Source: an uncultured Methanosarcinales archaeon (lineage in GTDB: Archaea; Nanobdellota; Nanobdellia; Woesearchaeales; UBA11576). Taken from it: a stretch of DNA of 64,000 bases. Positions within the stretch are counted from its first letter, which is position 1, and each line of letters opens with the position of its first letter. The notes below the pieces were generated by a model. The model made no database searches. It was not told the DNA's origin and saw only the letters and a list, made by a program, of their open reading frames with translations. Where the stretch lies: the NCBI GenBank assembly GCA_964563755.1, contig CAZLYC010000001.1:11548-75547 (forward strand), read 5' to 3'. The translations under genes and the position numbers were made by a program. Positions 20,418 through 52,694 of this stretch are shown in pieces.

Positions 20418-20520
20418 AGCCCCCGGCGAGAGTTGCACTCGCGACCTTCTGCTTATTGCCCGTCAGTACCACAAAGCAACTGACTCGAGGCAGACACTAT
20501 AGCTACTAAGCCACGGGGGC
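20418..20520 (-). tRNA. Intron-containing tRNA-like gene; isotype ambiguous
   Basis: - Minus-strand read: acceptor GCCCCCG/CGGGGGC, D-stem GCTT/TAGT.
- Anticodon stem TCTGC/GCAGA, separated by 37 nt (7-nt loop plus 30-nt intron).
- 5-nt variable loop AGGTC; T-arm GCGAG-TGCAACT-CTCGC, an atypical T-loop.
- Poly-T follows.
- A canonical 37/38 splice gives anticodon CGA (Ser), which is incompatible with the short variable arm.
- Non-canonical splices give CGU (Thr) or CAU (Met/Ile). Confidence 0.5.
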
Positions 20521-32000: not shown

Positions 32001-35000
32001 TAGTGTACACGTGGCTCTCTGAAGTGTGATTTATCATTACAATAAGCTTGCTTGTATCTACCTTGAAATCATCATATACGCTGAAAGTTATTTCCGGCGT
32101 ATTTGAATAAGAGTAGTTCTGAACTGAAGATATGTTGAACCAAGGACTGATTCCATCCTTATGTACGTAATTAGATTCAGACTGATATCCTTCTGTTGAG
32201 CCCCTAAAAGGAACAAGGTACAACTCATTCAGTCCGTCCTTCAAGTCAGAAATATCGACTGATATGTTGAACCATCCCTGCTTATGCACACTGTTATAGA
32301 ATGCAGCTTCAGTAACTGCCCCTGCAAGAGAAGCAGAGAGATTGGGATAGATGTATATCCTCGCATCCTCGCCAGGATTCTTGGTATGATTGGTCACATT
32401 ATACCTGAACCAGTAAGTCCTGTTGTGATTAGAGAACTCTACCCACAGGTTATTCCATCCTACAGTAGCCTCTATCTCATTATAGTCAAGAGGATTGATG
32501 AAGAAATAATCAGAACCGACAGGCCTGCTTTGTGTCACAACAGTCTCTCTGTGCAAAGTAGATGACTCGAAAGTCCAGTTCCAGAAATAGAAGAAATAAT
32601 CATCCTGCAATATGTTAACAGACATGTTAAGATTGAAAGTAGATTCATTCAGGTATCCTATTATCGTGAAATTCGTGTCGTTCCTGACAGCTTCCGGCAC
32701 AGGCCATAACACTGGAGCAGGTGGAGCAGTCTCAGGGTATGGCGCATTTATCCAATCTGAGGTTGCGTTGCCTTCATTCCCTTCCCTGTCAACACCCCAC
32801 GCAGTTATCCTGTTTGAGCCTCCGAAAAGCGAGACATTCATTATGAAGTAGCCCGGAGGATGAGGCGTCGTGTATAGACGCATGACTGTTCCCATAGGAA
32901 TATCTTCTGCGAGAGGCTGATAGAACTCTATCCTTATGTCATCACCAGTCTTATTCGCGCGAAGTATCTGATACCTATCAAAATAACTCCTATTATGATT
33001 AGAGAATTCAACATAGCTGAAACGGTTCAAAGCGCTCTGTATGACTGCGTTCCATGCAACAAAAGTCACGTTCTGGCCCTTGGTAGAGTCAAAGTTGACT
33101 ACAATATTGTCCCCTTTGTATTCTGAATCTATGCCTGAATAAGAACCCGTACCCATGAACTGGTATGACCAGAATCCGTGCAAAGCGACTATCGAGTAAG
33201 TTATGTCAGACTCGCCGAAATATCCTGCGACATATGTCCAATCAACACCATCTGTAAGGTTGGAAGGATGCAGCAATATCTGAGGGTACAGTATCGGCTT
33301 TTCCGGAGGTGTCGTATCCGGAATCACCCTGAAATATTCCATGAAACCAAGAGGCTCGTATATTGTTGATGAGCAGTTTATCCTGTAACGATAATAATCT
33401 GATGCTGCAGGGAAATCCTCTGCGCTGGATTCAAGAACATAGACTCCGTAGAAGTCATCATACTCCATCTCATCAGTACCATTGACATAGACAGTCACAT
33501 CATCTATGTAGACGGTATGGTTGCCAGGGACAGAATTATCAAGATAGAATATCATCTGGGCAGGTACGCCGTTGCCAGTGAACTGCTTAGATATTGAATA
33601 AACAGTCCAATTTGTTGACAAACTCCAGGATTGATCATTGTTCTCATTCTCTGAACCGACTTCAGTAAGATTTAGATGTATATTCCTTCCGTTGACATCA
33701 GACCTTGCACGGAAAGTTATGTTAAAATTCAGTTGAGATGTATTTGTTATAACTGAAGTTGAATTGATACCATAGCAATCAATATCATTTGAAACACAGG
33801 CATCATCGACCATCTGAAGCTTCATCGAATACTTATCAATATCGTCGGTATATTCAAGGGATGAATTAAGATAAGAGCTAGATTCAGACCATGGATTCAA
33901 AACATTGTTGTTGAAATCATAGCTTAAAAGTTCCTTATTCGCTTTCTGTATTATTGAACCGTTAGGCAGGAACAGAGTTATATTACATGCTCCGCCATTC
34001 GTGACTTCAGGATAGCCCCCTGTCTTGTCATTCACAGGAGAACCGTCTATATACTTCGAGTAGTTAGCAAAGAACCTTAGCCTATGATGAGGTTCCATTA
34101 TCTTAGGCGCATCTGACATGAACGAAGATGCGCGAGAATCATTCTGGGTGAAGGTCTCTAGCATGCTATTTGCAGCAGTCGTGAATGTGGAGAAGTGCAG
34201 TGCTGTAAATGATAAAACACCTGCGAAAGACGATGCTGTCGGCAATGGATTATAATCAGTGCATAGACCTGAAGGGCAAGGATAGCCATCGACAAGGACG
34301 ATAGGCACTTTGGTGTAATTCGTTAACTGCTTGAAATTAACTTTTGCCTGCTTGTTGAATCTGTTGCCATTTGTCGCAAGGATATTTACTGATATCAAGT
34401 TCTTTGTTATCGTAAAAATAGAGCTGATGTCCACCCCTGTAAGGTCTGTTGCAGCATCATACTGTACTGAACCGAACTCGTTGCTTATGAATGCGGCAGG
34501 TGTTTCAGTCAACTTTGTAATGCTTCCATTCACATACATATCATTATCAAAAGTTCCTATATCAAATCCATGACCGCAACCATCGTCAAGCCAATCTGTC
34601 AATAAATCGCAATCGTCATCAACAGTATCGTAACAGAACGTTGTTCCGTTCCCACCAAGAGAATCTGTGCTTGTATCATTCTCCCTGTATTCTGGTTGAT
34701 GTATCGAAGAATTGCTATCATTGCAGTCCCAAACATCAAAATAACCGTTATCCTGAAGAATGATAAGGCTTAGATTAGAAGCGCCATCAAAATCGTGATC
34801 GTTTGAAACTTCAAAATCATATGTCTCGTTACTGGTCCCATTGTAAAGATTGTCAAAAGGAATGACCTTGACGGTTATTTTGCTATTAAGAATAGTCACA
34901 GTATTCAAATCCAAATATAAATCAGGAGTCATTCCATCATTTTCTATGACGGAAGAGAATACATATGTCTGGTTATCCTTAGACAAAACATTATATGTTA

Positions 35001-35724
35001 TATCTTGATAGGTTGAAGTTGATTGTGGAGTCCAGTTAATTCTCAATTGGTCGATGTTATCAAACTTTTGATTTTTCAACACAACTCCAGCTACATCTGT
35101 TATGTTCACAAGACCGCAGGTAGATTTGATATTCTCTTTTGATATGTTGCTGACATAAAAGTTTCCTGACTTGCCAGCATCATCACATACATTCGTTGCT
35201 GCAACATTTCCAGTCACACCTCCATCATGGAAATTGTTGTTCCAAATCTTTATGTTTGAATTCGAAGATCCTATGGATATTCCTGTTCCTGATGTTATAA
35301 TATTATTATTTATGTTGACTTTATTAGTGCCTGTTGCATCGATTTTGATTCCCGTGTTAAAACCCGTTATTTTACAGTTCTTAACAGAGACGTTGTTGCT
35401 CGTGGTATTAACAAGAATACCATAACTACCAGTAGTACCGGTTATAGACTTACCTTGACAATCAAACACCACATCGCTGGCAGTTATATTTATACCAAAA
35501 TAGCTATCTGGACAGGTCAAGTCATTGCTTAGTGTCCAAGTTTTGCTTCCATCTCCTGGCTTGATTGAACCATTACAACCTCCAATATATGCATCAAATC
35601 CAGTAATCTCGCTTCCGATTCCGGAACCGAGCATATAAGCCCCTGTACCAAGAATAGCCATGGCTACTAGAACTAGCAGTAATGGAAACAATGCTGCTCT
35701 TTTTTGACGGACTAAACTTAACAC
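26002..35724 (-). CDS. Giant secreted surface protein (3240 aa) with an N-terminal parallel beta-helix region and an extreme density of N-glycosylation sequons
   Basis: Uninterrupted 9.7-kb ORF. Signal peptide with hydrophobic core (LFPLLLVLVAMAILGTGAYMLG). Beta-helix-type repeats (NVSVKNCKITGFNTGIKIDATG...NINNNIITSGTGISIG...IWNNNFHDGG). The composition is Asn/Ser/Thr/Tyr/Asp-rich, with N-x-S/T throughout. No TM anchor. Confidence 0.8.
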   Translation of the reverse strand: MLSLVRQKRAALFPLLLVLVAMAILGTGAYMLGSGIGSEITGFDAYIGGCNGSIKPGDGSKTWTLSNDLTCPDSYFGINITASDVVFDCQGKSITGTTGSYGILVNTTSNNVSVKNCKITGFNTGIKIDATGTNKVNINNNIITSGTGISIGSSNSNIKIWNNNFHDGGVTGNVAATNVCDDAGKSGNFYVSNISKENIKSTCGLVNITDVAGVVLKNQKFDNIDQLRINWTPQSTSTYQDITYNVLSKDNQTYVFSSVIENDGMTPDLYLDLNTVTILNSKITVKVIPFDNLYNGTSNETYDFEVSNDHDFDGASNLSLIILQDNGYFDVWDCNDSNSSIHQPEYRENDTSTDSLGGNGTTFCYDTVDDDCDLLTDWLDDGCGHGFDIGTFDNDMYVNGSITKLTETPAAFISNEFGSVQYDAATDLTGVDISSIFTITKNLISVNILATNGNRFNKQAKVNFKQLTNYTKVPIVLVDGYPCPSGLCTDYNPLPTASSFAGVLSFTALHFSTFTTAANSMLETFTQNDSRASSFMSDAPKIMEPHHRLRFFANYSKYIDGSPVNDKTGGYPEVTNGGACNITLFLPNGSIIQKANKELLSYDFNNNVLNPWSESSSYLNSSLEYTDDIDKYSMKLQMVDDACVSNDIDCYGINSTSVITNTSQLNFNITFRARSDVNGRNIHLNLTEVGSENENNDQSWSLSTNWTVYSISKQFTGNGVPAQMIFYLDNSVPGNHTVYIDDVTVYVNGTDEMEYDDFYGVYVLESSAEDFPAASDYYRYRINCSSTIYEPLGFMEYFRVIPDTTPPEKPILYPQILLHPSNLTDGVDWTYVAGYFGESDITYSIVALHGFWSYQFMGTGSYSGIDSEYKGDNIVVNFDSTKGQNVTFVAWNAVIQSALNRFSYVEFSNHNRSYFDRYQILRANKTGDDIRIEFYQPLAEDIPMGTVMRLYTTPHPPGYFIMNVSLFGGSNRITAWGVDREGNEGNATSDWINAPYPETAPPAPVLWPVPEAVRNDTNFTIIGYLNESTFNLNMSVNILQDDYFFYFWNWTFESSTLHRETVVTQSRPVGSDYFFINPLDYNEIEATVGWNNLWVEFSNHNRTYWFRYNVTNHTKNPGEDARIYIYPNLSASLAGAVTEAAFYNSVHKQGWFNISVDISDLKDGLNELYLVPFRGSTEGYQSESNYVHKDGISPWFNISSVQNYSYSNTPEITFSVYDDFKVDTSKLIVMINHTSESHVYTIDNMTCFNLFLNGSYYECTFQPNLTYNGNHTFNFTVSDMAGWSNFTTHLMKINVSKADIISVDDGDDITSDLWLYFNWTTNGGVLDRYEFALGTVPYPESGYDSIKSWQSSCTALGNCQQDWVNFTHNATSTNATTLKMKTGTVYYLTVRAVDSRGEYGKYGTSDGVLFIDPTPPVCVGGNCVTTQHWVNSRNSLSASWDFEDNESDIIGYMYSIGTSQYPAPGFESVVARTEISSDSVLRDDLNLSENGTYYFNVKARNGNIIINYNGTWSTWVSSPEVRIDTRPPYGGFIFYNSTNYTTTNYVTIQYNTGQDWPNTSGISNASLEYGRSELINGICQPIYDLDSFLPLVTGATWIDFNVSSGFCYVFRLNVWDNAGNAEQFFMPNETLEYVKIDYVAPTNITAVYDDGFYTFDRKQLHAWWTASTDTGSGFDHYLWEVYADNTANPNDCNVTTSTFSCGARIFEGNTTATEITLTPISLEHNYKYYFVVTPFDKADNFGGRTWSNGILYVDNAPPGQIYVYTINEDNQSSSPYLTEHSDGKINITAYGDLDGYHDIENCVLMSQDIDYTETARSDMLVANCTISDVLSNETSFSDELTDYIVTNITKINCINFTNYSGGSPTQETFSWALACRDKWWNTQSYANNALIWFTVDWPDPPKFLVSFLDSEDASDIYSDDNLYCRADFYDTDDEQNMANATISWYSGTVLIKKITTSLTNTGYEQEPGKYIYYVADTLTANYTYRLNNITCLVNVTDNESIWSNVSNSVVINNNVPDQEFELNLPENGDLLNGFVNFSWIGPYDDIDDDFINLELQIDNETSFNWSNNIQVSFESVSRLDADGVQIPGVQRNPDVFETKIVYEDTRSGSNDIYVYDKATGLETAVVTSTSNELNPQIYRSFVAYERNNGATSDVYMYSISSSITKLVVSGIEPYSMDFFSDRVVYRKSSAIYSKEFMNYSSDIYLDEERLLFNASNAINISIYGNDVVWTNSSDSQIWIYDISNRSAFATGLDGIGRMWGYFLLNENSTGIHVRDLRNGSASVSSFSGTQGTMSDGLLVYRNTSGNITVVDLLGPSSSTIGIHQGMDPDIHNDLLAFDDGQDVFYAFRNEYMPGRYLFEYNAFYPYVIFWINSSLSQDGVYYWRLQACDNSFVNNSCVFADYGSNDYASFTIDNTPPEISIVSPGNESIVAGQFRLYAKIDDNRGYSAVTYANYSISYSNGTRKYSGTLVQSGNVWMTSSVLDFQDVNVSNFTVLVYARDSLYNLNSASSMFTVDNDTAWFIFGTGSEEIITDVTAFINSVNSTFTAFNVLTSNIRISGPLPTTTSRSSRSQVNTSVTTHIYPDPISVVTWPDGKYVAQFNGTNPDGPNSQNRTFYVDRNAPFWYNASPTTIFASQNIVLSINWTDITIREINVTYDNWNKSNITSIKENMTLSGGRYVSSSIDIRSYINSSFYWTSTARDGLDRVNTTTLLSVFVESNAPDFEGTIPMIYVKEDSYNSSALLPNISSYFSDVNDEDSVWGYLDNLTFSATDNSSSVAIDVNSTTGKIQNITATGDFNGNVTVYFNATDSYGKMNHSNAVTLVVISVNDAPVISAVPAVYTSEDNLTTIEYSLSATDVDGDTLSWTLPDYNIAVFNLTQYDLAAGKFNFTLKADQFGVYNITFKVNDTTVQTKLNATVDIASVNDAPVVGNFTAPPIGARKKGTFPVSWIAASDKANENQALTYYLSYSTDGTTWNQLVDYATLQQNTSYSWNSSILFIDSEVNITLRLNVSDGMDTSQHVYEGNFTIDNLGPQITVVYPTIPYMIISGGNGSVNVTTHESATCSFVPNVSSVGVTTFSSGTTHTVILTNLINDVSYRVNVSCTDLPDTINANSTAIVFTAKSSGIQIVNVRAVPSVLIDGNKVNLTLEVFSSTPWDTLDLRINNSGSDVHTFTTADFTDMINSTNSFTRNLTAISTTNFGRYDVFITLLNNTNADILTNYHASNVFTVYPAINQTLNME

Positions 35725-36311: not shown

Positions 36312-38318
36312 TTATGGAACCCTGGTAGCATAAGTACCAACAGCACCAACAGTACTTTCTCTGTATGCAATAGTTAAACAAGTACGACCATTAGTAGGAC
36401 AAGTTGCACACACAGCATCACCAGCATAACTGCTTACACGACCCATCTGATCTGTTGCATCTGCAGGGTATGTTAAACCACCACAACAACCACAATCGTT
36501 GCAATCTGCGTAACCATCACAATCCTCATCTACAGGCGTACCCGAACCATAATGAGATAGCGTGCCTGAGCGTATCCAACCATAAGCTCCACTGCAGGTA
36601 GCCCAATTATCTTCAGTTGCTGCCGGATTCACTGATGCACTTGAATCTTTGCAGTCATTTGAGTTTGAAACATACCCTGAAGGAGCAGTACATGCTTGTT
36701 GTGTCGTAGCAGGTGTACCATAACCATCACTATCAGCATCTCTATAGAACGTAGTTTTTACACCATCATCAATAGTACTATCACAATCATCATCAATACC
36801 ATTGCATGTTTCAGCAGCTCCTGGTTTTATAGATGCAACAGCATCATTGCAGTCAGTGTGATCAACTAAATGACCTGCAGGCGCATCACAACCCCTAACA
36901 CCACCAGTAGTTGAACCATATCCATCAGCATCAGTATCTGGATACTTCAAAGAGACACAATCAGTCGTGCAAGATGCAACTGTACCAGCACAATCATTAT
37001 TAGAGGACACATAACCAGTAGGCGCATCACAACCCCTAACACCAGCACCAGCACCAAACCCATCAGTATCAGTATCGGGGTATTTCTGAGAAGTACAATC
37101 AGTTGTGCAAGATGCTTTTGTATCGTCACAATCCTGACTATTGGTCACATAGCCTGATGGAGTAGAGCATGCCCTCTTACTATCTGAAGCCAAGCCCTTC
37201 CCATCACCATCTCCGTCCTTATAATACAAAGTACCGCCAGATAAAATGTTATCTATTGTATTATCACAATTATCATCAACACTATTACATGTTTCTGTTA
37301 TTGGATCTACGCTTCCAACACAAGAACCCCAATTTCCATTAGCATTGCAAGTTGATGTTCCTTTCTTACAAGGCAAAGGACCGGCAGTATTGCCGCAGAC
37401 TTGAGTGTTTCCTGGAGAGCAGCAACCAGAAATTCCGTTATCAATAGTTCCGTCACAATTGTCATCAATAGCATTACAAGTTGTTCCTTCTGGATGACCC
37501 GGATTCACGTTTCGAGTGGCGTCGTTACAATCATTACCTACCGTAACATAATCCGAAGCAGGAGCAGGTGAAGAGCAAGCTTGAACAGCAATTGATGTGT
37601 TACCATAATTATCGTGATCAGAGTCCAAATAATATGTAGTCTTGACTCCTTCATCTATGCCGCCAACACAATTGTTATCAACACCATCACAAATTTCAGG
37701 CACACCTGGCTTTATTGAATTGACCGTATCATTACAATCGCCAGCGCAACTTGTAAAACCATCTCCATCAGAATCAAATCCTTCATCAATATTTCCATTA
37801 CAATTGTCGTCCAAACCATTACAGATTTCAGGAGTTGGATTGTTCCTGCAGTCAGCATCTCCACAATCAGTGGTCTTGTCGCAATCATTATCTCTTCCGT
37901 CAGAACATAATTGCTCTGGAAGATCAACAATGCATCCCGCCTGTCTCTTATAATCCATCTCTGTTATGCAATCTCCATGAAAACATCTCTCAGGGCAAGG
38001 TGAATTAGTAACGACATCCTTATTCTTGCCGTCTGCAGAACAAGTACTTATTATCGGCTGATTTTGAGCAGTACAATCTTTTGTTACTGAATTTGGCTCA
38101 CATACTTGTTTCGATGCTGAAAGAGATTGTATACGACCAAAACTGTCCACATTCTTTTCAGCAGCCTTGAGCGCTGTTCCACTTTGTCCTGTCTTCTTCA
38201 GCGCACCTAATGCCTGACCGGCGCACTGGTCACACACACTCTCACAACCAGAAAGAAGAACAACGCCAAAAAACAAAGCAACAACAAGAATAACAGACAA
38301 GACTTTGACATTCACCAT
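36312..38318 (-). CDS. Secreted Cys-rich lipoprotein with tandem DxDxDG / CxxDCxD Ca-binding-like repeats
   Basis: Signal plus lipobox-like LLSGC. Repeated blocks of the form DCND...NPG..E.CNG.DDDCDG..DEG / Y.D.DGDGYG. 668 aa, rich in Cys, Asp, Gly, Asn. Confidence 0.65.
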   Translation of the reverse strand: MVNVKVLSVILVVALFFGVVLLSGCESVCDQCAGQALGALKKTGQSGTALKAAEKNVDSFGRIQSLSASKQVCEPNSVTKDCTAQNQPIISTCSADGKNKDVVTNSPCPERCFHGDCITEMDYKRQAGCIVDLPEQLCSDGRDNDCDKTTDCGDADCRNNPTPEICNGLDDNCNGNIDEGFDSDGDGFTSCAGDCNDTVNSIKPGVPEICDGVDNNCVGGIDEGVKTTYYLDSDHDNYGNTSIAVQACSSPAPASDYVTVGNDCNDATRNVNPGHPEGTTCNAIDDNCDGTIDNGISGCCSPGNTQVCGNTAGPLPCKKGTSTCNANGNWGSCVGSVDPITETCNSVDDNCDNTIDNILSGGTLYYKDGDGDGKGLASDSKRACSTPSGYVTNSQDCDDTKASCTTDCTSQKYPDTDTDGFGAGAGVRGCDAPTGYVSSNNDCAGTVASCTTDCVSLKYPDTDADGYGSTTGGVRGCDAPAGHLVDHTDCNDAVASIKPGAAETCNGIDDDCDSTIDDGVKTTFYRDADSDGYGTPATTQQACTAPSGYVSNSNDCKDSSASVNPAATEDNWATCSGAYGWIRSGTLSHYGSGTPVDEDCDGYADCNDCGCCGGLTYPADATDQMGRVSSYAGDAVCATCPTNGRTCLTIAYRESTVGAVGTYATRVP

Positions 38319-38451
38319 GAAGATACCTCTGTTTTATTTTTTAGTCAAAACAGATATTCTAATATTTAAACGTTATTAAACATCAAACAAAGCTTCTAAC
38401 CTAATTGAAATGATAGTTAACTATATATAAAATGAAGAAATAATGATTTAC

Positions 38452-39141
38452 ATGGCAAAAAAATCATTCCTGCTAATATCCTTGAAAGAGAACAAGGCAA
38501 AGAAACTTGCAGAAGTCATAAGCAACAAGACCTGCAGGAATATACTTGATTATATGGCTGAAAAGAAAGATGCCACAGAGTCAGAGATATCGAAAGACCT
38601 GCAGATACCGATTTCTACTGTGCACTACAACATGAAAGCGCTTGTCGAAGCACGGCTTGTGAAAAGCGATGAATACCATTACAGCGAAAAAGGAAAGGAA
38701 GTCAGCCACTATAAGCTTGCCAATCAATACGTAATAATCGCGCCAGAAGGCGAGAAACAGATATTGCGGGAGAAGCTGAAATCAATAATACCAACTGCGC
38801 TCATAATGGCCACTGCTGCCGGGCTGATAAAGATGTTCTCAATTGGCAGCTTCGCACAGAAAGCCTCAGCGCCGATGCTCATGGGCGCTATGGAAGCCAC
38901 TGCAGATGAAGCAATGCAAGAGACCGCTAATGCAGGAGCAGATATGCTCATGGCAGAAGCAGCACCAGCGATGCAGAAAGCAGCCTTGCGAACTGTTGAA
39001 ACTGCTCCTCCTATCCGCGAGGCAATAAGCCAGACGCCGGAGATAGCATTGTGGTTCTTTATCGGTGCAGTATCTGGCGTAGCAATCTATCTATTAATAG
39101 AATTCATAATGAAAAAACTAAAGGAAAGACGAGAAGAATAA
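38452..39141 (+). CDS. Membrane-anchored ArsR-type winged-HTH regulator
   Basis: wHTH (CRNILDYMAEKKDATESEISKDLQIPISTVHYNMKALVEARLV) followed by a hydrophobic region and a C-terminal TM helix (IALWFFIGAVSGVAIYLLIEFI). Confidence 0.55.
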   Translation: MAKKSFLLISLKENKAKKLAEVISNKTCRNILDYMAEKKDATESEISKDLQIPISTVHYNMKALVEARLVKSDEYHYSEKGKEVSHYKLANQYVIIAPEGEKQILREKLKSIIPTALIMATAAGLIKMFSIGSFAQKASAPMLMGAMEATADEAMQETANAGADMLMAEAAPAMQKAALRTVETAPPIREAISQTPEIALWFFIGAVSGVAIYLLIEFIMKKLKERREE

Positions 39142-39150
39142 AGACAATAG

Positions 39151-40041
39151 GTGAGGCAAAAAATGAAACTCAAACAATCAATCATAATATTAGCATTAAT
39201 CGTTTCTGTGCTCCTAATAGGCTGCGCAAAGACAGAAATGAACGAACAGACTGTCTCTTCCAGAGCATACATGGGAAAATCACTGGTAATGCCTGCTGCT
39301 GAGCCGATGATGGATTATGCATCCGGCGAAGCTCGAAATTATGAATATGATGAAGAATCTGCAGGACAAGGCACCGCATCAACTGAAACAAAAATAATAA
39401 AGAATGCTTACCTCAACATAGAAGTCCAGGATTTTGCTATAGCGAGCCAGAAGGCAGAAGGCCTTGCGAAGAAATATAACGGATATCTCTCAAACTCAGA
39501 GGCCCGAACAGACCAAAATGACAAGCACAGCGGAACACTGACAATAAGAGTCGCTGACGAATTCTATGACGCGATAATAGCAGAGCTTTCGACATTAGGA
39601 GAAGTCAAATCAAAGACCCAGAACGCGGATGATGTCACAGAAGAATTCATAGACCTTGAAGCCAGACTCAACAACTCAAAGGCGCATGAGAAAAGGCTTC
39701 TTGAGATGTTCGAAGATGCAAAGAATGTCAATGAGATGCTACAGGTAGAAAGAGAATTGTCAAGAGTCAGGCAGGACATAGAGACAATGCAAGGAAGACT
39801 AAACTACCTAAAAAACAGAGTATCAATGTCTACAATAACAGTCTACATTTACGAAGAGACTCCTGTAGTGCAGGAATGGGGAATATGGCAGGCAATAAAA
39901 GACTCTCTCAACAACATGCTAGCTACACTCAGATGGCTGATAGAATTTGTAGGACTTGTACTGCCACTGTTGATATTCGGCGGAGCAATCTGGATGCTTA
40001 TCAGATGGATAAGACGAAAGAGAAGCAGCGTGAAAAAATAA
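39151..40041 (+). CDS. DUF4349-like lipoprotein with a C-terminal TM helix
   Basis: Lipobox LLIGC. The middle is helical/coiled (EEFIDLEARLNNSKAHEKRLLEMFEDAKNVNEMLQVERELSRVRQDIETMQGRLNYLKNRVSMSTITVYIYE), then a C-terminal TM. This architecture matches DUF4349. Confidence 0.5.
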   Translation: MRQKMKLKQSIIILALIVSVLLIGCAKTEMNEQTVSSRAYMGKSLVMPAAEPMMDYASGEARNYEYDEESAGQGTASTETKIIKNAYLNIEVQDFAIASQKAEGLAKKYNGYLSNSEARTDQNDKHSGTLTIRVADEFYDAIIAELSTLGEVKSKTQNADDVTEEFIDLEARLNNSKAHEKRLLEMFEDAKNVNEMLQVERELSRVRQDIETMQGRLNYLKNRVSMSTITVYIYEETPVVQEWGIWQAIKDSLNNMLATLRWLIEFVGLVLPLLIFGGAIWMLIRWIRRKRSSVKK

Positions 40042-40064: not shown

Positions 40065-43000
40065 TCATCCTGTGTAGTTCAGGAGATTATCCATAAGAAG
40101 CTGGCCCCAGGCAGTAGGCTCAAGAGACATGCCTACACCACATCCACCAGCAGAATAGTCAACTAAAAGATTTGGCGGGCAGCGCATATGGAAAGTCCAT
40201 GCAAGATAAGGGATTCTCAAATCCTGGGCACTATCAATAAGTTGCTGGCAATCATCCATGCTCATATATCCTGATGCCGGACCGAACTCACCTATTATCA
40301 CAGGGATTGACTGCGACGGATCCACAAAACGATCATTGAAAGTCGATGCCGGATCATATACGTGGACCTCATACGCTATATTATCCCCACCGTGTGCAGT
40401 TATAGGATGATCAACATAATATCCAAGAAAACGTGACCACCCACCTGTGCCCTGAACAGCAATAATGTGGTGTTGAGACCCTTCTGAATCCTCTGTCTCG
40501 CGTATAATACCGACCGTAGCGTTCATAGTTACCCACACTGCAGCATCAAGAGTGCCAGCATAATTCATCTCAGGCTCATTGACTAAACCAAACAGTACGT
40601 GAGATTCATTTGCAAATGTCGATGCAAGACGCTGCCATATCTGGCGGGTTCCATCTGTAGGCCAGCCATTAGAATCAAAAGTAGGATCTACCCAAAGCGA
40701 GAGCATGACATACACGCCCTGCTTAGTCCTTATGTGCTCCACAATCTCCACTATATCATCAAGATAATCCTGATCATCAAGCACACCCTGCCAATGGACT
40801 CTTCCCCCTGAATCAGCGTAACTCTCAAGAGCAAGACGTACAAAATCAGCGCCCCAAACATCAACAAGCAAATCTATCCTGCGCTTTACTTCTTCCACAT
40901 CAGGAGCATTCCAAGAGCATGCGTCACATGACCTTGTGTCGTGGATATTCGCTCCCCTTCCTACCCACACTTCTCCGTCAGAGTAAATCTTATTCCCCTG
41001 AGTGTAGAGCCAACCTGAAGTGTTGACTGTAGACTGAGTGGAGCATACATCATAACGCTCATGTATCCCTATCTCAAAACCATCATCCTGAATCCTGGAG
41101 TTTCCATAGAAATCCTCAAAGACAGGCACACTAGCTCCTGCACATATCGCTGGGCTTCCGGACTGGAGGCGGAAGTCATCACCCGCAGGATTCACAAGCA
41201 GAGGATTAGCATCAAGACTATGATTGTCCTGACCAAAACCAGACTGCCATCCAGACAAATTCAGATAGTTCCCGATTCCCAACCTCACAAATGTTGCGCC
41301 AGAAGTGCTATGAGTCATCAAGAGATTGTTATCAGAGTCCATCTTCGATACAGCGACAGATATCTCTTCTGTGCTTTGGTCACCGGGCTCAAACAGCAGG
41401 AATCTCGCATCATTCCCTGATATCTGTGTAGAAACAGCTATGTTGTTCCTAAGAACAACGGAATCAAAATCATCACCATAAAATCTTGCGAATGAAAACG
41501 TATCATCATAAGATGCGTATTGCAGATTGTTGTATATATTCACTCTCACTGCAGGAGGAGACGGGCTTAGTCCATCAGTATCTATCGAACATGCTATGGG
41601 CGTGTAGAAAATATTGTTCCGCACAGTCACATTTACTGCCCTTATCTGAATCCCTATAGGCGTCAAAAATCCAGAATTCCGCTCAAAAACATTCCGCTCA
41701 ACAACAACATCCCTTATACGCTCATCGTAATGATTGCTCTCCTCCCTGACCGTGACATACCAATCAGTCCCTCTGAAGATATTATCAGATATGACAACAT
41801 ATTGAGAATAAAAACCAGTGAATGCCTCGTCAAGGCTTGGCGCGTGAAGCTTAAGGGCATGCTGTGTTGCGCCAGGGTCACGAAGGACATTGTCGCTTAT
41901 GAATGCCTTCCCTGCATAAGGTATACGGACAACATGGTAGACTGAAGCGTTGAGTATTGCGTTGCCTATTATCGCTATGTTATTGCCACCATACCAAAAA
42001 TGCGCGCCAGAAGCGCTATTGTATATCCATGAATCCGCAACAGTTATGTCATGATTCTGGTGTATATTCTGCTGATGAATAAACACGCTTCCGCTGAAAT
42101 CGTGGATGTGCATACGTAAGATAAGATGCCTTGACTGCATACCGAAAGCCCTTATGGCGTTTGAACTTGAAATTCCTAACCCTTCCATCTCAAGATCAGA
42201 TATCCTCCAATCTGTGACTAGGCCGTTCTGAGAGAATTCAAAACCATGCCCTGCGTGAGCAGATATTATCTTCGGGGCATTCGCACATATTCCCCGTTCA
42301 TCAGGATCCAAACAAGAACCGTACGCGCCGATATGTCCAGGGCCTGCCCTGTTCACATATGCCCTGCTTGTAGTAGTCCAAACATCTCCACGCCTGAACA
42401 ATATCCTCCTGTTCGAACCAGCGACATTATCACTATCCTCATACAAAGGAAAATAATCCAGATGGTCTGAAGAATTCCCTGAAGGACAGCCAGTGAAATC
42501 TCCAGAATTGGAAACGCAGAATGTCCTTCCGACAGGAGGCATGAAAACTACTTCAGGATTCTGTATCTCAACATTGAAGCGCTGCGATGAACTGTTGCCT
42601 TGAATATCCCTTACAGTCAAGACAACCTCATGAGCGCCAACAGATTCAAAGACATGAGCAGCAACACCTCCTTTTGCAGAAGGATGCGTAGAACCTGTGT
42701 CGTCAAAATCCCACTCAAATTCAAGGTCATGGAATGGCCTTTCAATCCCTGCAGCAGAAGTCATAGAAGCGTCAAAGAATATCGAACAAGGAGCTACACA
42801 AGAGCTGCGAGATAAGCTTATGTTTATCGATATGTTTCCAGACACAGATGTATTGACAGGTACAGATGTGTTGCCTGACCCTATGATATCAGTCTCATTA
42901 TCTGAGTCAGGACCGCATCCGGGATCTCCTGAGTCAATCAAACCGTCAAAATCGTTATCTATCGTATCATTACATTCTGTCATTAAAACATCATAAGAAT

Positions 43001-43487
43001 CATCATCTGATACGGGATCAGGAGGAGCAACGCTACCGCTTCCACCGCCGCCTCCACCGCCACCAGAACTGCAGTAACAATCATAACGACAATTGTGACA
43101 ATCTTCACCCGCACCGCAAGAACCATCGCCGCAGTATCCTGTATCAGTCATATTACCTTGGCCAGCGTAGGCAATCACGGGCTTTACAACCAAAGGCAAT
43201 GTTTTTTTGGGATAAGGAGATACTGGAGAAGAAGAGTTATCTGTTGCTTTCGTAATCTCTTCTTGTATAACATCTTTCCCTTTATCGGACTCAGCAACAG
43301 GACTTCCGTCATTGAAATCATGCAATGCGCTTTTGTCGGGCTCTTTGTAAGAGAAAATAGCAAAACCTGACAGCATTCCGTCCTGCCATTGAAACGCGAC
43401 TAGAGTTATTACTATGATGACTGAGAAAAGCACAAAAAATTTTGAATATCTGCTTGTCAACACCATCTTTTCAACGAAAACATCCAA
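40065..43487 (-). CDS. Large secreted multidomain protein: Gly-rich linker, PKD-like domain, parallel beta-helix and a C-terminal GH5-like (cellulase-family) glycoside hydrolase
   Basis: N-terminal TM/signal (FFVLFSVIIVITLVAF), SSGGGGGGGGSGS, PKD-like block (FEWDFDDTG...HEVVLTVRDIQGNSS) and beta-helix repeats (IYNNLQY...VLRNNIAV). The C-terminal catalytic region has GH5-like motifs (LFGLVNEPEM; IIGEFGPASG). Confidence 0.65.
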   Translation of the reverse strand: MDVFVEKMVLTSRYSKFFVLFSVIIVITLVAFQWQDGMLSGFAIFSYKEPDKSALHDFNDGSPVAESDKGKDVIQEEITKATDNSSSPVSPYPKKTLPLVVKPVIAYAGQGNMTDTGYCGDGSCGAGEDCHNCRYDCYCSSGGGGGGGGSGSVAPPDPVSDDDSYDVLMTECNDTIDNDFDGLIDSGDPGCGPDSDNETDIIGSGNTSVPVNTSVSGNISINISLSRSSCVAPCSIFFDASMTSAAGIERPFHDLEFEWDFDDTGSTHPSAKGGVAAHVFESVGAHEVVLTVRDIQGNSSSQRFNVEIQNPEVVFMPPVGRTFCVSNSGDFTGCPSGNSSDHLDYFPLYEDSDNVAGSNRRILFRRGDVWTTTSRAYVNRAGPGHIGAYGSCLDPDERGICANAPKIISAHAGHGFEFSQNGLVTDWRISDLEMEGLGISSSNAIRAFGMQSRHLILRMHIHDFSGSVFIHQQNIHQNHDITVADSWIYNSASGAHFWYGGNNIAIIGNAILNASVYHVVRIPYAGKAFISDNVLRDPGATQHALKLHAPSLDEAFTGFYSQYVVISDNIFRGTDWYVTVREESNHYDERIRDVVVERNVFERNSGFLTPIGIQIRAVNVTVRNNIFYTPIACSIDTDGLSPSPPAVRVNIYNNLQYASYDDTFSFARFYGDDFDSVVLRNNIAVSTQISGNDARFLLFEPGDQSTEEISVAVSKMDSDNNLLMTHSTSGATFVRLGIGNYLNLSGWQSGFGQDNHSLDANPLLVNPAGDDFRLQSGSPAICAGASVPVFEDFYGNSRIQDDGFEIGIHERYDVCSTQSTVNTSGWLYTQGNKIYSDGEVWVGRGANIHDTRSCDACSWNAPDVEEVKRRIDLLVDVWGADFVRLALESYADSGGRVHWQGVLDDQDYLDDIVEIVEHIRTKQGVYVMLSLWVDPTFDSNGWPTDGTRQIWQRLASTFANESHVLFGLVNEPEMNYAGTLDAAVWVTMNATVGIIRETEDSEGSQHHIIAVQGTGGWSRFLGYYVDHPITAHGGDNIAYEVHVYDPASTFNDRFVDPSQSIPVIIGEFGPASGYMSMDDCQQLIDSAQDLRIPYLAWTFHMRCPPNLLVDYSAGGCGVGMSLEPTAWGQLLMDNLLNYTG

Positions 43488-43555
43488 AACAGTTATTCTC
43501 AGCTGTCCAGACCGCTGTTTAAATAATCGATGGTTGGCATGTTTACGAAAAGGCT

Positions 43556-43590: not shown

Positions 43591-44082
43591 ATGACTGCAG
43601 CAATAATAGTGACTGGAACTCCGGGCACAGGAAAGACGACAGTAGCGATGCAGCTAGCAAAGAGACTTAAGTATGAATATATCGACGTCAACAGAATAAT
43701 AAAAAATGAAAAGCTCAGCGAAGGATATGATCGCAAAAGACTATGCAAGATAATAGACATCAAGAAACTGAATAGAATTTTGGGCAAGATAATAAAGAAT
43801 TCCAAAAAAAAGGTTGTTATTGATTCTCACCTGTCACATCACCTGCCCGTAGAACTAGTTGATATGTGCGTGGTGACAAAGTGCAACCTTAAACTTTTGA
43901 ATATGAGACTCAAGAAACGAAAGTATCCTCTAAATAAGATAAAGGAAAACCTCCAATGCGAGATATTTGATGTGTGCCTGAACGAGGCGCATGAAAAAGG
44001 ACACAAGACAATCATATTTGATACCGATAGAAACCCTGATTATTCAATTTTAATAAAGAAAATAAAAAGAATAAAAAAATAA
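43591..44082 (+). CDS. Adenylate kinase isoenzyme 6 / Fap7-like P-loop NTPase
   Basis: Walker A IIVTGTPGTGKTT. Region VIDSHLSHHLPVELVDMCVVTKCN...KIKENLQCEIFDVCLNEA parallels archaeal AK6/Fap7. 163 aa. Confidence 0.7.
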   Translation: MTAAIIVTGTPGTGKTTVAMQLAKRLKYEYIDVNRIIKNEKLSEGYDRKRLCKIIDIKKLNRILGKIIKNSKKKVVIDSHLSHHLPVELVDMCVVTKCNLKLLNMRLKKRKYPLNKIKENLQCEIFDVCLNEAHEKGHKTIIFDTDRNPDYSILIKKIKRIKK

Positions 44083-50398: not shown

Positions 50399-50494
50399 GG
50401 CCCTGTAGCGCAGCTTGGATAGCGCGACTGCCTTCTAAGGCAGAAAAAGCTAAAGGAAAGCAGTAGGTCGTGGGTTCAAATCCCATCAGGGCCG
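50399..50494 (+). tRNA. tRNA-Arg (anticodon UCU) with a ~21-nt intron at the canonical 37/38 position
   Basis: Acceptor GGCCCTG/CAGGGCC, D-arm GCGC-AGCTTGGATA-GCGC, anticodon stem ACTGC...GCAGT, loop CTTCTA|A, intron AGGCAGAAAAAGCTAAAGGAA, variable loop AGGTC, T-arm GTGGG-TTCAAAT-CCCAT, discriminator G. Confidence 0.8.
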
Positions 50495-50497
50495 TAT

Positions 50498-50619
50498 GGC
50501 GGCGTCGCCAAATCCGGTAAGGCAATCGCCTGCAGACTGGACACAACGCTGTGTCGAGCGCGAAAGCGCGATGAGAGGAAGACAGCGATCATTTGGGGGT
50601 TCAAATCCCTCCGCCGCCT
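50498..50619 (+). tRNA. tRNA-Cys (anticodon GCA) with a ~48-nt intron containing a GNRA-capped hairpin
   Basis: Acceptor GGCGGCG/CGCCGCC with discriminator U (typical of Cys). Anticodon stem ATCGC...GCGAT, loop CTGCAG|A. The intron includes GCGCGAAAGCGCG. Variable loop CATTT, T-arm GGGGG-TTCAAAT-CCCTC, then poly-T. It starts 3 nt after tRNA-Arg. Confidence 0.75.
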
Positions 50620-51200: not shown

Positions 51201-52694
51201 TCATTCATCAAGCCGCATGACTTCCCATACAGAAACGCCATTCTTATCATACACATTCGTGAATGTCATCCGGTCGTTCAGCAGGAAAAGCAAACCCTCG
51301 TTCTGCTTTGTCCAGACAGAATCCGAGCGCATCCTCGGAGTTATGTAGATATACCTTATGTTGTAGTTCTTGAAAAGAGTCTTCGCATCATCCAACTTGC
51401 GTCCATAGAACAACGAGTCCTGGACCTTGTAGGTGAAACGCTGGTCATAGCCAGATGAAAAGAATGCGTCTGTAAGAACAGGATTCCTTGCGACAGTCGA
51501 TATCAGATAGCCCTCATCATAGTGAGAGAGGACAAAACCATCCTTGAATGCGTTATCGCGCATCCATGCCAAGCTATCCATCATATCCTTGTCAGGCTCA
51601 AGAGATTCCAGCCTTTCCAGATAAGATATTGTTGAGAACAATATACCACATATGAGTATCAGAATGGACAGGTCCTTAAGCATAGGAACAGCAGACTTCT
51701 CCTCTGTTAACTTCACGAAACCCATGCCTCCTGCCACCGCGACAAAGAACGCAAGATACATGCTGATGAAACTACCGAAGAAAAACAGACACACAAAAAG
51801 CAGAGTAGAAATACCAAAAAAAGGAAGGAAATCAGACTTATCCTTCCAATTGGACACAACACCATGCGCTGCAAGGACTATGCTGAATATGCCAAAACCA
51901 ATCATTCCGCCAAGGTCAGAGAAAAGGCTGCTGATTATGTTCACCTCGTGCTCATAAGCGTAATTATAGAACAGCTTAGAGCCCATCGCGAGCGAAAAAA
52001 ATGCTGTCATGAAAGCGGTGACGACAAAACGGCTCTGCATCTTCCTCTTAAGCAGTATGTAAGAGAGAAGAAGAAGCAATACAAGCACCGTATTGAAAAG
52101 GCTGAACAGTGAGACTATCAAAAGGCACGCAAGGGACAAGAAAGCAAAAATCCTGCCTTCATTCATGAAAAAATAAAAACCGAGCAAAGAAAATACTATG
52201 ACCGCAGCATTCGCATTCGAGACAGTGAACAAGTATATGAAAGCAGGATTGAGGACAAGCAAGATAAGAGATACGTGCCGCTTATAATCATCCTTAATGA
52301 AACGCTTCAGGATAAGATTGAACACAAGCAAAGACAAGACTCCTGCTAAAAACGGGGCTATACGAGAGGAGGTCTGAAGCGAGAAAATACTCGATGCGTA
52401 CACAAGGAAGTAATGATACGGATTGAACACATAATTCCTATGCGAATACGCCATGTCCTGTATATCCTCAGGAGGATTGAAAAGATTGTATGACTTCTCC
52501 TTAATGAGTTCTGCAGAAGCCCTGAGATGATAATACGACTCTGAACCCACCAACGAGTCATTGCCTGAATAGAACCGTGCAAAATTCGGAAAAACGAGCA
52601 CAAAGAAAAGCAAGACTATCGCAGGGATGAAAAGGTTGCGTTTCTTCAGCCCAAGATTAAGGTATTCCATCATCTTGCTACACCTGCCCTGCAT
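51201..52694 (-). CDS. Polytopic GT-C-type membrane glycosyltransferase (ArnT/PMT/STT3-like), paralog 1
   Basis: At least 10 TM helices followed by a soluble C-terminal domain (DSLAWMRDNAFKDGFVLSHYDEGYLIST...). That domain resembles the downstream paralog (ALEWLKHNSEAGSVVLSTISEGNLVSA...). Confidence 0.45.
   Translation of the reverse strand: MQGRCSKMMEYLNLGLKKRNLFIPAIVLLFFVLVFPNFARFYSGNDSLVGSESYYHLRASAELIKEKSYNLFNPPEDIQDMAYSHRNYVFNPYHYFLVYASSIFSLQTSSRIAPFLAGVLSLLVFNLILKRFIKDDYKRHVSLILLVLNPAFIYLFTVSNANAAVIVFSLLGFYFFMNEGRIFAFLSLACLLIVSLFSLFNTVLVLLLLLSYILLKRKMQSRFVVTAFMTAFFSLAMGSKLFYNYAYEHEVNIISSLFSDLGGMIGFGIFSIVLAAHGVVSNWKDKSDFLPFFGISTLLFVCLFFFGSFISMYLAFFVAVAGGMGFVKLTEEKSAVPMLKDLSILILICGILFSTISYLERLESLEPDKDMMDSLAWMRDNAFKDGFVLSHYDEGYLISTVARNPVLTDAFFSSGYDQRFTYKVQDSLFYGRKLDDAKTLFKNYNIRYIYITPRMRSDSVWTKQNEGLLFLLNDRMTFTNVYDKNGVSVWEVMRLDE

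What the first reader, a model, noticed from the sequence alone, without database searches (positions are those of the whole stretch)
40065..43487. 1140-aa secreted PKD + beta-helix + GH5-like glycosidase in an organism with otherwise minimal metabolism
The C-terminal ~330 aa carry GH5 catalytic signatures: an NEP acid/base in LFGLVNEPEM and a GEFG nucleophile region. In front of this sit a PKD-like domain, a parallel beta-helix and a Gly8 linker.

An endoglycanase displayed on a long stalk is unexpected for a tiny-genome archaeon. It could act on a host envelope polysaccharide rather than on a nutrient.
Basis: partly seen in the sequence, partly recalled or inferred. Interest (0 to 1): 0.65.

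Follow-up and report, generated by a model that had tools for sequence, protein, structure and literature searches.

The report
Surface GH5 glycanase inserted in DPANN archaeon
A tiny-genome (Woesearchaeota-type) archaeon carries a lineage-specific inserted gene for a surface or secreted enzyme that joins a sugar-chain-cutting GH5 domain of a mostly myxobacterial type to a beta-helix module. The combination was found in no other protein, but its target sugar is unknown and GH5 genes in such archaea are already on record.

Summary
ORF 40065-43487 (minus strand; 1140 aa from TTG, 1133 aa from ATG) has this order: N-terminal hydrophobic anchor or signal, sequon-rich stalk with a Cys knot and Gly8, PKD domain, ~500-aa right-handed beta-helix, and a C-terminal GH5 domain.

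GH5 membership is solid. Pfam gives 72 bits against a cutoff of 23.5. The AF2 model has pLDDT 96 and TM 0.72-0.74 to GH5 glucanases. The NEP acid/base (E971) and nucleophile (E1067) are intact, and 88 of 88 clade-conserved positions are kept.

The host is a DPANN (Woesearchaeota-like) archaeon.

New findings:
- The GH5 domain is 57-67% identical to stand-alone bacterial enzymes, mostly from Myxococcota. No archaeon appears among the best 80 genome hits.
- The PKD + beta-helix half belongs to a separate, widespread family.
- No other protein among 1.84 billion representatives joins the two halves.
- In four close relatives Fap7 and DUF4349 are adjacent; here the 3.4-kb gene sits between them.

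"Unexpected" is overstated, because GH5 genes and extracellular CAZymes are already catalogued in DPANN. Substrate, GH5 subfamily and any host-directed role remain untested. Interest is moderate to low: a new architecture of a known enzyme kind.

The parts
40065..43487 (-). Whole ORF: 1140 aa from TTG. The likely real CDS is 40065-43466, 1133 aa from the ATG for Met8, identical to database protein P0001.
43518..43527 (-). A/T-rich TATA-like box (ATTATTTAAA), 52-61 nt upstream of the Met8 ATG. Candidate archaeal promoter, read directly from the sequence and not tested.
   Evidence: upstream sequence printed
43383..43466 (-). aa 8-35: basic N-terminus plus one hydrophobic segment (FFVLFSVIIVITLVAF). 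Either a signal peptide or an uncleaved signal anchor.
   Evidence: hydropathy scan; the only such segment in the protein
42813..43382 (-). aa 36-225: stalk. It contains an S/P/K-rich linker, a six-Cys knot CGDGSCGAGEDCHNCRYDCYC (aa 119-139), Gly8 (aa 142-149), an acidic double-disulfide repeat (aa 170-191) and an NxS/T-rich linker.
42558..42812 (-). aa 226-310: PKD (Ig-like) domain.
   Evidence: Pfam above cutoff. Fold matches to ColG/ColH PKD domains, TM(target) 0.82-0.85.
41058..42557 (-). aa 311-810: right-handed parallel beta-helix with an Asn ladder (N509, 533, 569, 599, 625, 654, 682, 721). It ends in a choice-of-anchor-Q-like cap (aa 770-808). Family-conserved polar residues are D426, R428, D431, H518, R521, E597, R623 and D792.
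41013..41057 (-). aa 811-825: 15-aa junction (RYDVCSTQSTVNTSG) between the end of beta-helix family homology and the start of GH5 family homology.
40068..41012 (-). aa 826-1140: GH5 (beta/alpha)8 catalytic domain.
40575..40577 (-). Codon of E971, the predicted acid/base in the N970-E971-P972 motif.
   Evidence: Aligned to NEP of 5ecu and 5wh8. Invariant in 51 clade members.
40287..40289 (-). Codon of E1067, the predicted nucleophile in GEFG.
   Evidence: Aligned to the Glu of TEWG/TEFG in 5ecu and 5wh8. Invariant in the clade. The nucleophile mutant 2ckr (E355Q) scores 2.8 bits below wild-type 2cks against the clade profile.
39151..40041 (+). DUF4349 gene, one flank of the insertion. In relatives it lies directly next to the Fap7-like gene.
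43591..44082 (+). Fap7-like AAA_18 kinase gene, the other flank of the insertion.

Best explanation
The gene encodes an exported, probably N-glycosylated, modular glycan-degrading protein of a Woesearchaeota-type DPANN archaeon.

How it is built. An N-terminal hydrophobic segment takes it across the membrane or anchors it there. A ~190-aa stalk and a PKD domain hold out a ~500-aa right-handed beta-helix. That helix most likely binds a polysaccharide chain and may also cut or modify it. At the far end sits a catalytically competent GH5 domain.

How it works. GH5 enzymes cleave beta-glycosidic bonds by a retaining double-displacement mechanism. Here E971 (NEP motif, strand 4) would be the acid/base and E1067 (GEFG, strand 7) the nucleophile.

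Where it came from. The gene was gained in this lineage by insertion between two genes that are adjacent in its relatives. Its GH5 half comes from a clade otherwise found in bacteria, mainly Myxococcota. Its PKD + beta-helix half comes from a separate family spread over Myxococcota, CPR, DPANN and others.

Shown: domain identities, folds, catalytic residues, conservation, uniqueness of the fusion, the insertion, and host taxonomy.

Inferred: enzymatic activity, export topology, glycosylation, direction of transfer, and the beta-helix role.

Unknown: the substrate. The closest folds are endo-beta-1,4-glucanases, so my best guess is a beta-1,4-linked glucan or mannan-type extracellular polysaccharide.
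For: GH5 membership:
- PF00150 72.1 bits against a cutoff of 23.5.
- AF2 model pLDDT 96.
- Foldseek top 50 are all GH5 enzymes, TM 0.59-0.74.
- NEP and the nucleophile Glu align with those of solved GH5s.
- 88 of 88 positions that are >=95% conserved in 50 relatives are kept.

Export: a single N-terminal hydrophobic segment, and 18 sequons against 9.3 +/- 2.8 expected.

Beta-helix:
- Model pLDDT 88.
- Best matches are PL6 chondroitinase B, the HK620 tailspike endoglycosidase, DFA-IIIase, the AlgE4 epimerase and phage depolymerases.
- In 2 of 7 contexts examined, stand-alone members sit as paralogue pairs in polysaccharide-biosynthesis clusters.

Bacterial affinity of GH5:
- 546 hits, the best at 57-67% identity and stand-alone.
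- The best 80 loci among 185,579 species genomes are all bacterial, mostly Myxococcota.
- The window sequence is nested among them in an NJ tree.

Uniqueness: phmmer against 1.84 billion representatives finds no other protein covering both halves.

Insertion: four relatives (DnaG 76-80% identical) have Fap7 and DUF4349 44-265 nt apart. A more distant relative (DnaG about 60% identical) also lacks the gene.

Host: ABCE1 is 79-84% identical to Woesearchaeota/Nanoarchaeota proteins. The tRNAs contain introns. Topo VI, archaeal DnaG and Hjc are present.
Against: - No enzymatic or expression data exist.
- The strand-3 His conserved in most GH5 enzymes aligns with Trp932 in this whole clade. The -1 subsite therefore differs from characterised enzymes, and specificity cannot be transferred from them.
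- Identity to any solved GH5 is at most 22%.
- None of the 10 other multidomain clade members scanned carries a Pfam carbohydrate-binding-module hit that would hint at the substrate.
- GC and GC3 of both halves are host-like and there are no flanking repeats. The transfer is therefore not recent, or its direction is not proven. Loss in the relatives is less parsimonious but not excluded.
- The tree is a distance tree without support values.
- The beta-helix matches are fold-level only (TM <= 0.5, 8-16% identity), so a purely structural or adhesive role is possible.
Confidence: 0.72

Rival explanations
1. Role variant A, nutrient or matrix degradation. The enzyme depolymerises environmental or biofilm-matrix beta-glycans around the cell. 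This releases oligosaccharides or clears a path. It is the usual reading of extracellular CAZymes in DPANN.
For: The literature treats DPANN CAZymes as mostly extracellular and degradative (PMC8421398; PMC12153355). The closest folds are endo-beta-1,4-glucanases. Members of the beta-helix family occur in exopolysaccharide gene clusters.
Against: No sugar transporter or glycolytic gene lies in the 64-kb window. The rest of the genome was not available. No Pfam carbohydrate-binding-module hit was found.
Confidence: 0.45
2. Role variant B. The enzyme is a contact tool that cuts a polysaccharide of the host's envelope or capsule. This would let the episymbiont attach or gain access, analogous to a phage tailspike depolymerase.
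For: The beta-helix fold resembles tailspike and EPS depolymerases. The gene lies in a run of large, variable surface-protein genes: a 3240-aa giant and a MopE-repeat protein whose slot holds a different secreted protein in relative L102. The GH5 clade is centred on predatory Myxococcota, where one paper presumes GH5 acts in cell lysis (PMC11821767; speculative there too).
Against: The host is unknown. Resemblance to tailspikes is fold-level only. The relatives lack the gene, so it is not a core part of the symbiotic apparatus. No solved or characterised GH5 that matched here is a cell-wall hydrolase.
Confidence: 0.2
3. Adhesin reading. The protein is mainly a surface adhesin or stalk, and the GH5 domain serves as a non-catalytic sugar-binding module.
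For: PfbA, a beta-helix adhesin, is among the fold matches. PKD and Cys-rich repeats are typical of adhesive surface proteins.
Against: Both catalytic glutamates and all 88 clade-conserved positions are retained. That pattern is what continued selection for catalysis would produce.
Confidence: 0.07
4. Artefact reading. The fusion is an assembly chimera or a mis-called read-through of two genes.
For: The architecture is a singleton, and the exact protein comes from a single contig.
Against: The ORF is uninterrupted, with a clean 15-aa junction exactly between the two homology regions. GC and GC3 of both halves match the archaeal neighbours. Archaeal genes flank it tightly on both sides, with gaps of 23 nt and 103 nt. 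A chimera would need two breakpoints inside 1 kb.
Confidence: 0.03

Closest known systems
Stand-alone bacterial GH5 proteins annotated 'cellulase family glycosylhydrolase' or 'endoglucanase' (Myxococcota, some Acidobacteriota and Desulfobulbia), e.g. P0112-P0118 and loci L003-L082; uncharacterised
   Same: The catalytic domain is 57-67% identical over 98% of its length. All conserved residues match, including the two Cys pairs (C854/C857 and C1103/C1116) and Trp in place of the strand-3 His.
   Different: They are 350-420-aa single-domain proteins. Judging from the alignment consensus and one example, they typically have an N-terminal Cys followed by a low-complexity linker, which looks like a lipoprotein signal. 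They are bacterial, and none has a PKD/beta-helix gene within +/-8 kb.
Structurally characterised GH5 endo-beta-glucanases: Thermobifida fusca Cel5A (2CKS/2CKR), metagenomic Cel5A (4HTY), Saccharophagus degradans SdGluc5_26A (5A8M/5A94), Bacillus subtilis Cel5A (3PZT), rumen GH5 5WH8
   Same: (beta/alpha)8 fold with TM 0.72-0.74. NEP acid/base, nucleophile Glu on strand 7, and the Arg, His-x-Tyr and Trp hallmark residues.
   Different: Only 17-22% identity. The strand-3 His is replaced by Trp932. Subfamily and substrate are not assignable. Here the domain is fused behind a beta-helix.
PKD + beta-helix 'PKD repeat protein' family (P0002-P0111), including a Pacearchaeota protein with a LamG domain (P0095), Minisyncoccia, Myxococcota and Anaeromyxobacter sp. 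PSR-1 (P0080)
   Same: aa ~200-810 are 27-40% identical, with the same PKD, beta-helix and choice-of-anchor-Q-like cap. 40 of 46 family-conserved positions are kept.
   Different: None carries a GH5 domain. Most are ~630-800 aa and stand alone, and their function is unknown.
Carbohydrate-active right-handed beta-helix proteins: PL6 chondroitinase B (7O78, 1OFM), phage HK620 tailspike endo-N-acetylglucosaminidase, AlgE4 epimerase, phage EPS depolymerases
   Same: Overall fold (Foldseek probability 1.0).
   Different: TM only 0.3-0.5 and 8-16% identity. No Pfam family hit above cutoff. Catalytic residues of those families could not be mapped. No evidence of trimerisation.
Extracellular CAZymes catalogued in DPANN/Woesearchaeota metagenome-assembled genomes
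   Same: An exported glycoside hydrolase in a reduced-genome archaeon. GH5 is explicitly counted in DPANN (PMC12153355; PMC8421398).
   Different: Those surveys report family counts, not architectures. This particular fusion and its insertion history are not described there.

Membership tests
Glycoside hydrolase family 5 (CAZy GH5; Pfam PF00150; clan GH-A) | Sequence match to the family model above the curated threshold | tested here: met
   PF00150 72.1 bits against a cutoff of 23.5, aa 867-1099
Glycoside hydrolase family 5 (CAZy GH5; Pfam PF00150; clan GH-A) | (beta/alpha)8 barrel fold matching solved GH5 structures | tested here: met
   AF2 pLDDT 96, pTM 0.94. The Foldseek PDB top 50 are all GH5, TM up to 0.74.
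Glycoside hydrolase family 5 (CAZy GH5; Pfam PF00150; clan GH-A) | Acid/base Glu in the Asn-Glu-Pro motif at the end of strand 4 | tested here: met
   N970-E971-P972 aligns with NEP of 5ecu and 5wh8. Invariant in 51 sequences.
Glycoside hydrolase family 5 (CAZy GH5; Pfam PF00150; clan GH-A) | Nucleophile Glu at the end of strand 7 | tested here: met
   E1067 aligns with the Glu of TEWG/TEFG and is invariant. The E355Q mutant 2ckr scores 39.5 bits against 42.3 for wild-type 2cks versus the clade profile.
Glycoside hydrolase family 5 (CAZy GH5; Pfam PF00150; clan GH-A) | The other hallmark residues: Arg (strand 2), His (strand 3), His and Tyr (strand 6), Trp (strand 8) | tested here: inconclusive
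   R884, H1042, Y1044 and W1097 are present and invariant. The strand-3 His aligns with Trp932 in the whole clade. This rests on sequence alignment only and was not checked in 3D.
Glycoside hydrolase family 5 (CAZy GH5; Pfam PF00150; clan GH-A) | Retaining beta-glycosidase activity; CAZy subfamily | not testable with these tools
   No assay and no dbCAN/CAZy subfamily models were available. The nearest solved structures are at most 22% identical.
PKD domain (PF00801 / PF18911) | Family model above threshold and an Ig-like beta-sandwich fold | tested here: met
   30.8 bits against 27 and 26 against 23.5. ColG PKD TM(target) 0.85, rmsd 1.8 A.
Right-handed parallel beta-helix (pectate-lyase-like fold) | Stacked three-strand coils with an Asn ladder; fold match to known beta-helix proteins | tested here: met
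   pLDDT 88, about 12 coils in DSSP. Conserved Asn roughly every 24-39 residues. Foldseek probability 1.0 to PL6, tailspikes and AlgE4.
Polysaccharide lyase family 6 (chondroitinase B / alginate lyase) | Family-level sequence or structure similarity, with the Ca2+ site and Lys/Arg catalytic pair | tested here: not met
   TM 0.39/0.46 and 10-11% identity. No Pfam lyase family hit. The catalytic residues could not be mapped, so the module is not filed as PL6.
Phage-type tailspike depolymerase | Trimeric beta-helix with an N-terminal particle-binding domain and a catalytic groove | not tested
   Only monomer fold resemblance, TM 0.3-0.47. Oligomeric state was not modelled.

The most novel reading that the evidence does not exclude
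The PKD + beta-helix module is itself an undescribed family of polysaccharide-cleaving or polysaccharide-modifying enzymes, widespread in Myxococcota, CPR and DPANN. This one-off fusion to a GH5 would then be a 'Rosetta stone' tying the family to beta-glycan breakdown. On this reading the DPANN archaeon has assembled, from bacterial parts, a two-headed depolymerase that it uses on the exopolysaccharide or envelope of neighbouring or host cells.
Probability: 0.15. Interest if true: 0.65.

Novelty: new variant of a known kind. Interest (0 to 1): 0.36.

Why it matters
It is a clean, datable example of a reduced-genome DPANN archaeon gaining a large exported enzyme gene whose parts have bacterial affinities. 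The insertion is a 3.4-kb gene dropped into otherwise conserved gene order, in a region of variable surface-protein genes.

It also flags two uncharacterised families worth a biochemical look:
- A tightly conserved GH5 clade centred on Myxococcota, with Trp in place of the usual strand-3 His.
- A PKD + beta-helix family. The full-length exhaustive search returned 637 representatives at E <= 1e-30 for the two families combined.

The unique fusion suggests that the two families act on related substrates. It does not change the general picture, because extracellular GH5 enzymes in DPANN are already reported.

Tried and rejected
- The source record could not be fetched. The contig look-up for P0001 found nothing on record. 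Exact-cluster look-ups of P0001 and nine neighbouring proteins returned no names or accessions. The organism was therefore placed through ABCE1 homologues instead.
- I looked for a conserved gene partner of the stand-alone GH5 in 80 bacterial loci. None was found. The largest non-GH5 cluster occurs in only 15 loci, and a 21-locus cluster is an antisense ORF artefact. No PKD/beta-helix gene lies within 8 kb.
- I looked for carbohydrate-binding modules in other multidomain members of the GH5 clade as a substrate hint. Only Kelch, PPC, TSP3, PKD, Big_2 and T9SS sorting domains turned up.
- I looked for compositional signs of recent transfer and found none. GC is 0.45-0.47 and GC3 0.40, both host-like.
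- I looked for target-site duplications or inverted repeats flanking the insertion and found only short chance matches.
- I looked for paralogues of either module in the window and found none.
- A GH5 subfamily could not be assigned without CAZy/dbCAN models. Papers on myxobacterial CAZymes gave no subfamily or function for this clade.
- Assembly chimera was considered and rejected, as set out under the rival explanations.
Full report
**1. The observation.** An uninterrupted ORF runs from 43487 down to 40065 on the minus strand. It is 1140 aa from a TTG start. The identical database protein P0001 is 1133 aa, which corresponds to a start at the ATG for Met8 at 43466. The quoted motifs are present: LFGLVNEPEM with NEP at aa 970-972, GEFG at aa 1066-1069, and Gly8 at aa 142-149. 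Pfam finds GH5 (PF00150, aa 867-1099, 72.1 bits against a gathering score of 23.5) and a PKD domain (PF18911 30.8 against 27; PF00801 26 against 23.5). NCBIfam gives sub-threshold hits to an acidic double-disulfide repeat (aa 170-191) and a choice-of-anchor-Q domain (aa 770-808). The only hydrophobic segment is N-terminal, aa 14-33. N-glycosylation sequons are enriched, 18 against 9.3 +/- 2.8 in shuffles, and cluster in the linkers. The one correction is that the Gly8 run lies in the N-terminal stalk, not next to the GH5 domain.

**2. The GH5 domain.**
- An alignment of aa 826-1140 with 50 relatives (A1) gave an AlphaFold2 model with pLDDT 96 and pTM 0.94.
- Its 50 best Foldseek matches in the PDB are all GH5 enzymes. 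The first group is endo-beta-1,4-glucanases (4HTY, T. fusca Cel5A 2CKR/2CKS, CHU_2103, SdGluc5_26A, B. subtilis Cel5A), with TM 0.71-0.74 at 17-21% identity. GH5_8-type mannanases follow just behind.
- In HMMER alignments NEP aligns with NEP, and the Glu of GEFG aligns with the Glu of TEWG or TEFG in 5ECU and 5WH8.
- Against the clade profile, the T. fusca Cel5A mutant E355Q (2CKR) scores 39.5 bits and the wild type (2CKS) 42.3 bits. The mutated catalytic Glu therefore falls on a conserved Glu column.
- R884, N970, E971, H1042, Y1044, E1067 and W1097 are invariant in the clade. The window protein keeps 88 of 88 positions that are >=95% conserved in the other 50 sequences.
- One hallmark differs. 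The His on strand 3 (the DWH motif of 5ECU and 5WH8) aligns with Trp932 throughout this clade. I could not verify this in 3D.
- From established knowledge of clan GH-A, these residues imply a retaining double-displacement mechanism with E971 as acid/base and E1067 as nucleophile.
- Subfamily and substrate cannot be assigned. The best sequence relative with a structure is 5WH8 (profile E = 1e-16), and no structure exceeds 22% identity.

**3. The front half.**
- Residues 220-830, modelled with 68 relatives (A2), give a PKD sandwich followed by a right-handed parallel beta-helix (pLDDT 88, pTM 0.92).
- The PKD part matches clostridial collagenase PKD domains (TM(target) 0.82-0.85).
- The helix matches PL6 chondroitinase B, the HK620 tailspike, DFA-IIIase, AlgE4, PfbA and GH87. 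These matches are weak: TM 0.3-0.5 and 7-14% identity.
- Against viral models the matches are tailspikes, pectate-lyase-fold proteins and EPS depolymerases, again at fold level only.
- Conserved positions include an Asn ladder (N509, 533, 569, 599, 625, 654, 682, 721) and a set of polar residues (D426, R428, D431, H518, R521, E597, R623, D792).
- The window protein keeps 40 of 46 family-conserved positions. All six changes lie at aa 230-338, in or just after the PKD domain.
- I do not file the module under any lyase or hydrolase family.

**4. The two halves are separate families, and the fusion is unique.**
- With the full protein as query, every hit other than P0001 covers only about half of it (the PKD + beta-helix part), and none carries PF00150.
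- With the GH5 part alone there are 546 hits. The best 120 are 57-67% identical, mostly 350-420 aa, and stand alone. Where named, they are 'cellulase family glycosylhydrolase' from Myxococcota, Deltaproteobacteria or unclassified bacteria.
- An exhaustive phmmer search of 1.84 billion representatives (of about 15 billion proteins) found 3429 hits. Among the 150 best listed, each covers either aa ~200-800 or aa ~810-1130. The best non-self score is 454 bits, for GH5 alone.
- Other multidomain members of the GH5 clade carry Kelch, PPC, TSP3, PKD, Big_2 or T9SS sorting domains, but no Pfam carbohydrate-binding module.

**5. Who owns the relatives.**
- A scan of one genome for each of 185,579 species found 121 relatives of the GH5 domain. 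The best 80 are all bacterial at 49-67% identity. By record title they are overwhelmingly Myxococcota (Polyangiaceae, Archangium, Labilithrix, Haliangium, Sorangium, Anaeromyxobacteraceae), with a few Acidobacteriota and Desulfobulbia. None is archaeal.
- In a neighbour-joining tree the window sequence is nested eight nodes deep among them, next to two Myxococcota sequences. The tree has no support values.
- None of these loci has a PKD/beta-helix gene within 8 kb, and no other neighbour is conserved.
- The closest PKD + beta-helix relatives examined sit in bacterial contexts: NRPS, histidine kinases and the mur/ftsW cluster. One family member is from a Pacearchaeota contig.
- In two of seven contexts the family occurs as a pair of paralogues beside an Acyl_transf_3 + SGNH gene with glycosyltransferases nearby and, in L108, a Wzx-type flippase. 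Those look like exopolysaccharide clusters. This is a modest hint that the module handles glycans.

**6. The host and the locus.**
- The neighbours are archaeal housekeeping genes: Topo VI A and B, archaeal DnaG, RIO kinase, a KH protein, ABCE1, a Fap7-like kinase, Hjc, tRNA splicing endonuclease, FEN1, RadB and RNase J. The three tRNA genes contain introns.
- ABCE1 is 79-84% identical to its best hits, and the named ones are 'Candidatus Woesearchaeota' or 'Nanoarchaeota'.
- All window proteins checked are singleton clusters from one 303-kb NCBI contig.
- A metagenome scan with DnaG returned 19 loci. In the four closest (DnaG 76-80% identical) the order Top6A-Top6B-KH-RIO-DnaG-Fap7-DUF4349-HTH is the same as here, but Fap7 and DUF4349 are only 44-265 nt apart. 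A more distant locus (DnaG about 60% identical) has DnaG-Fap7-HTH.
- In the window the 3.4-kb gene occupies exactly that gap, leaving 103 nt and 23 nt of spacer. The DUF4349 ends align across loci.
- No flanking repeats are detectable. GC (0.45-0.47) and GC3 (0.40) of both halves are host-like.
- The simplest reading is a gain in this lineage that is not recent, or one that came from a low-GC donor. Loss in the relatives is less parsimonious but not excluded.

**7. What is already known.** GH5 genes have been counted in DPANN MAGs (229 in one acid-mine-drainage survey, PMC12153355). The Woesearchaeota comparative-genomics paper states that most DPANN CAZymes are extracellular (PMC8421398). Another Woesearchaeota study lists GH57, GH13, GH15, GH100 and GH133 (PMC11606122). 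The presence of an exported GH5 is therefore not surprising in itself. For Myxococcota, one paper presumes that expanded GH5 genes take part in lysing prey (PMC11821767). That is conjecture there as well.

**8. Verdict.** The protein is most likely a working, exported, modular retaining beta-glycanase. Its biological target is open, whether environmental or matrix glycan or a partner's envelope. The finding is real and correctly read at the domain level. Its claim to surprise is overstated. What is new is the one-off architecture, the bacterial (Myxococcota-type) affinity of the catalytic domain, and the clean insertion into conserved synteny. I rate it a new variant of a known kind, with interest about 0.36.

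Noticed in passing
window 26002-35724 (-): A giant 3240-aa ORF whose only Pfam hits are cadherin-like and Big_9 domains near aa 2827-2920. A 48%-identical orthologue begins at the syntenic place in relative L102 (12248 onwards). It is probably a giant surface protein, a kind I recall being reported for DPANN.
   Followed up: partly
window 36312-38318 (-); L102 10310-11698: A 668-aa MopE-type Cys-rich repeat protein (PF11617, 105 bits) has an unusually low GC3 (0.24, against 0.42-0.53 for most neighbours). It has no counterpart in L102, where the same slot between the HTH gene and the giant gene holds an unrelated 462-aa secreted Cys-rich protein. Together with the GH5 insertion, this marks a variable surface-protein region inside conserved synteny.
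   Followed up: partly
window 20418-20520 (-), 50399-50494 (+), 50498-50619 (+): Three tRNA genes of 96-122 nt are found by Rfam. ARAGORN reports only one of them and cannot name its anticodon, which suggests introns or unusual intron positions.
   Followed up: no
L088 4367-7618 (-): In a close relative, Topo VI subunit B is a single 1083-aa ORF, against 581 aa in the window. The two homologous parts are separated by about 1.5 kb, so there may be an intein or another insertion inside Top6B.
   Followed up: partly
window 18472-20358 (-): One 628-aa ORF combines an amino-acid permease (aa 13-399) with a C-terminal SAM-methyltransferase domain (aa 452-589), which looks like an unusual transporter-enzyme fusion.
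   Followed up: no
window 51201-52694 (-) and 52670-54172 (-): Two adjacent ORFs of about 500 aa have no Pfam hit and are weak paralogues of each other (24-32% identity by cross-hits in L088). Both are conserved in relatives L088 and L102.
   Followed up: no
window 38443-39141 (+) and 39151-40041 (+): An ArsR/HTH_20-type regulator with a C-terminal transmembrane helix is followed by a DUF4349 protein that also has a C-terminal hydrophobic stretch and basic tail. The pair is conserved in all four close relatives, and its function is unknown.
   Followed up: partly
window 42786-42800 (-), aa 230 and 234 of the fusion protein: Two positions in the first PKD strand that are Gly and Leu in 96% of family members are both Cys here (SSCVAPCS). 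This may be a lineage-specific extra disulfide.
   Followed up: no
window 8285-8998 (+): A 237-aa protein with a lamin-tail domain (PF00932, 44 bits), next to two ORFs with no family hit.
   Followed up: no
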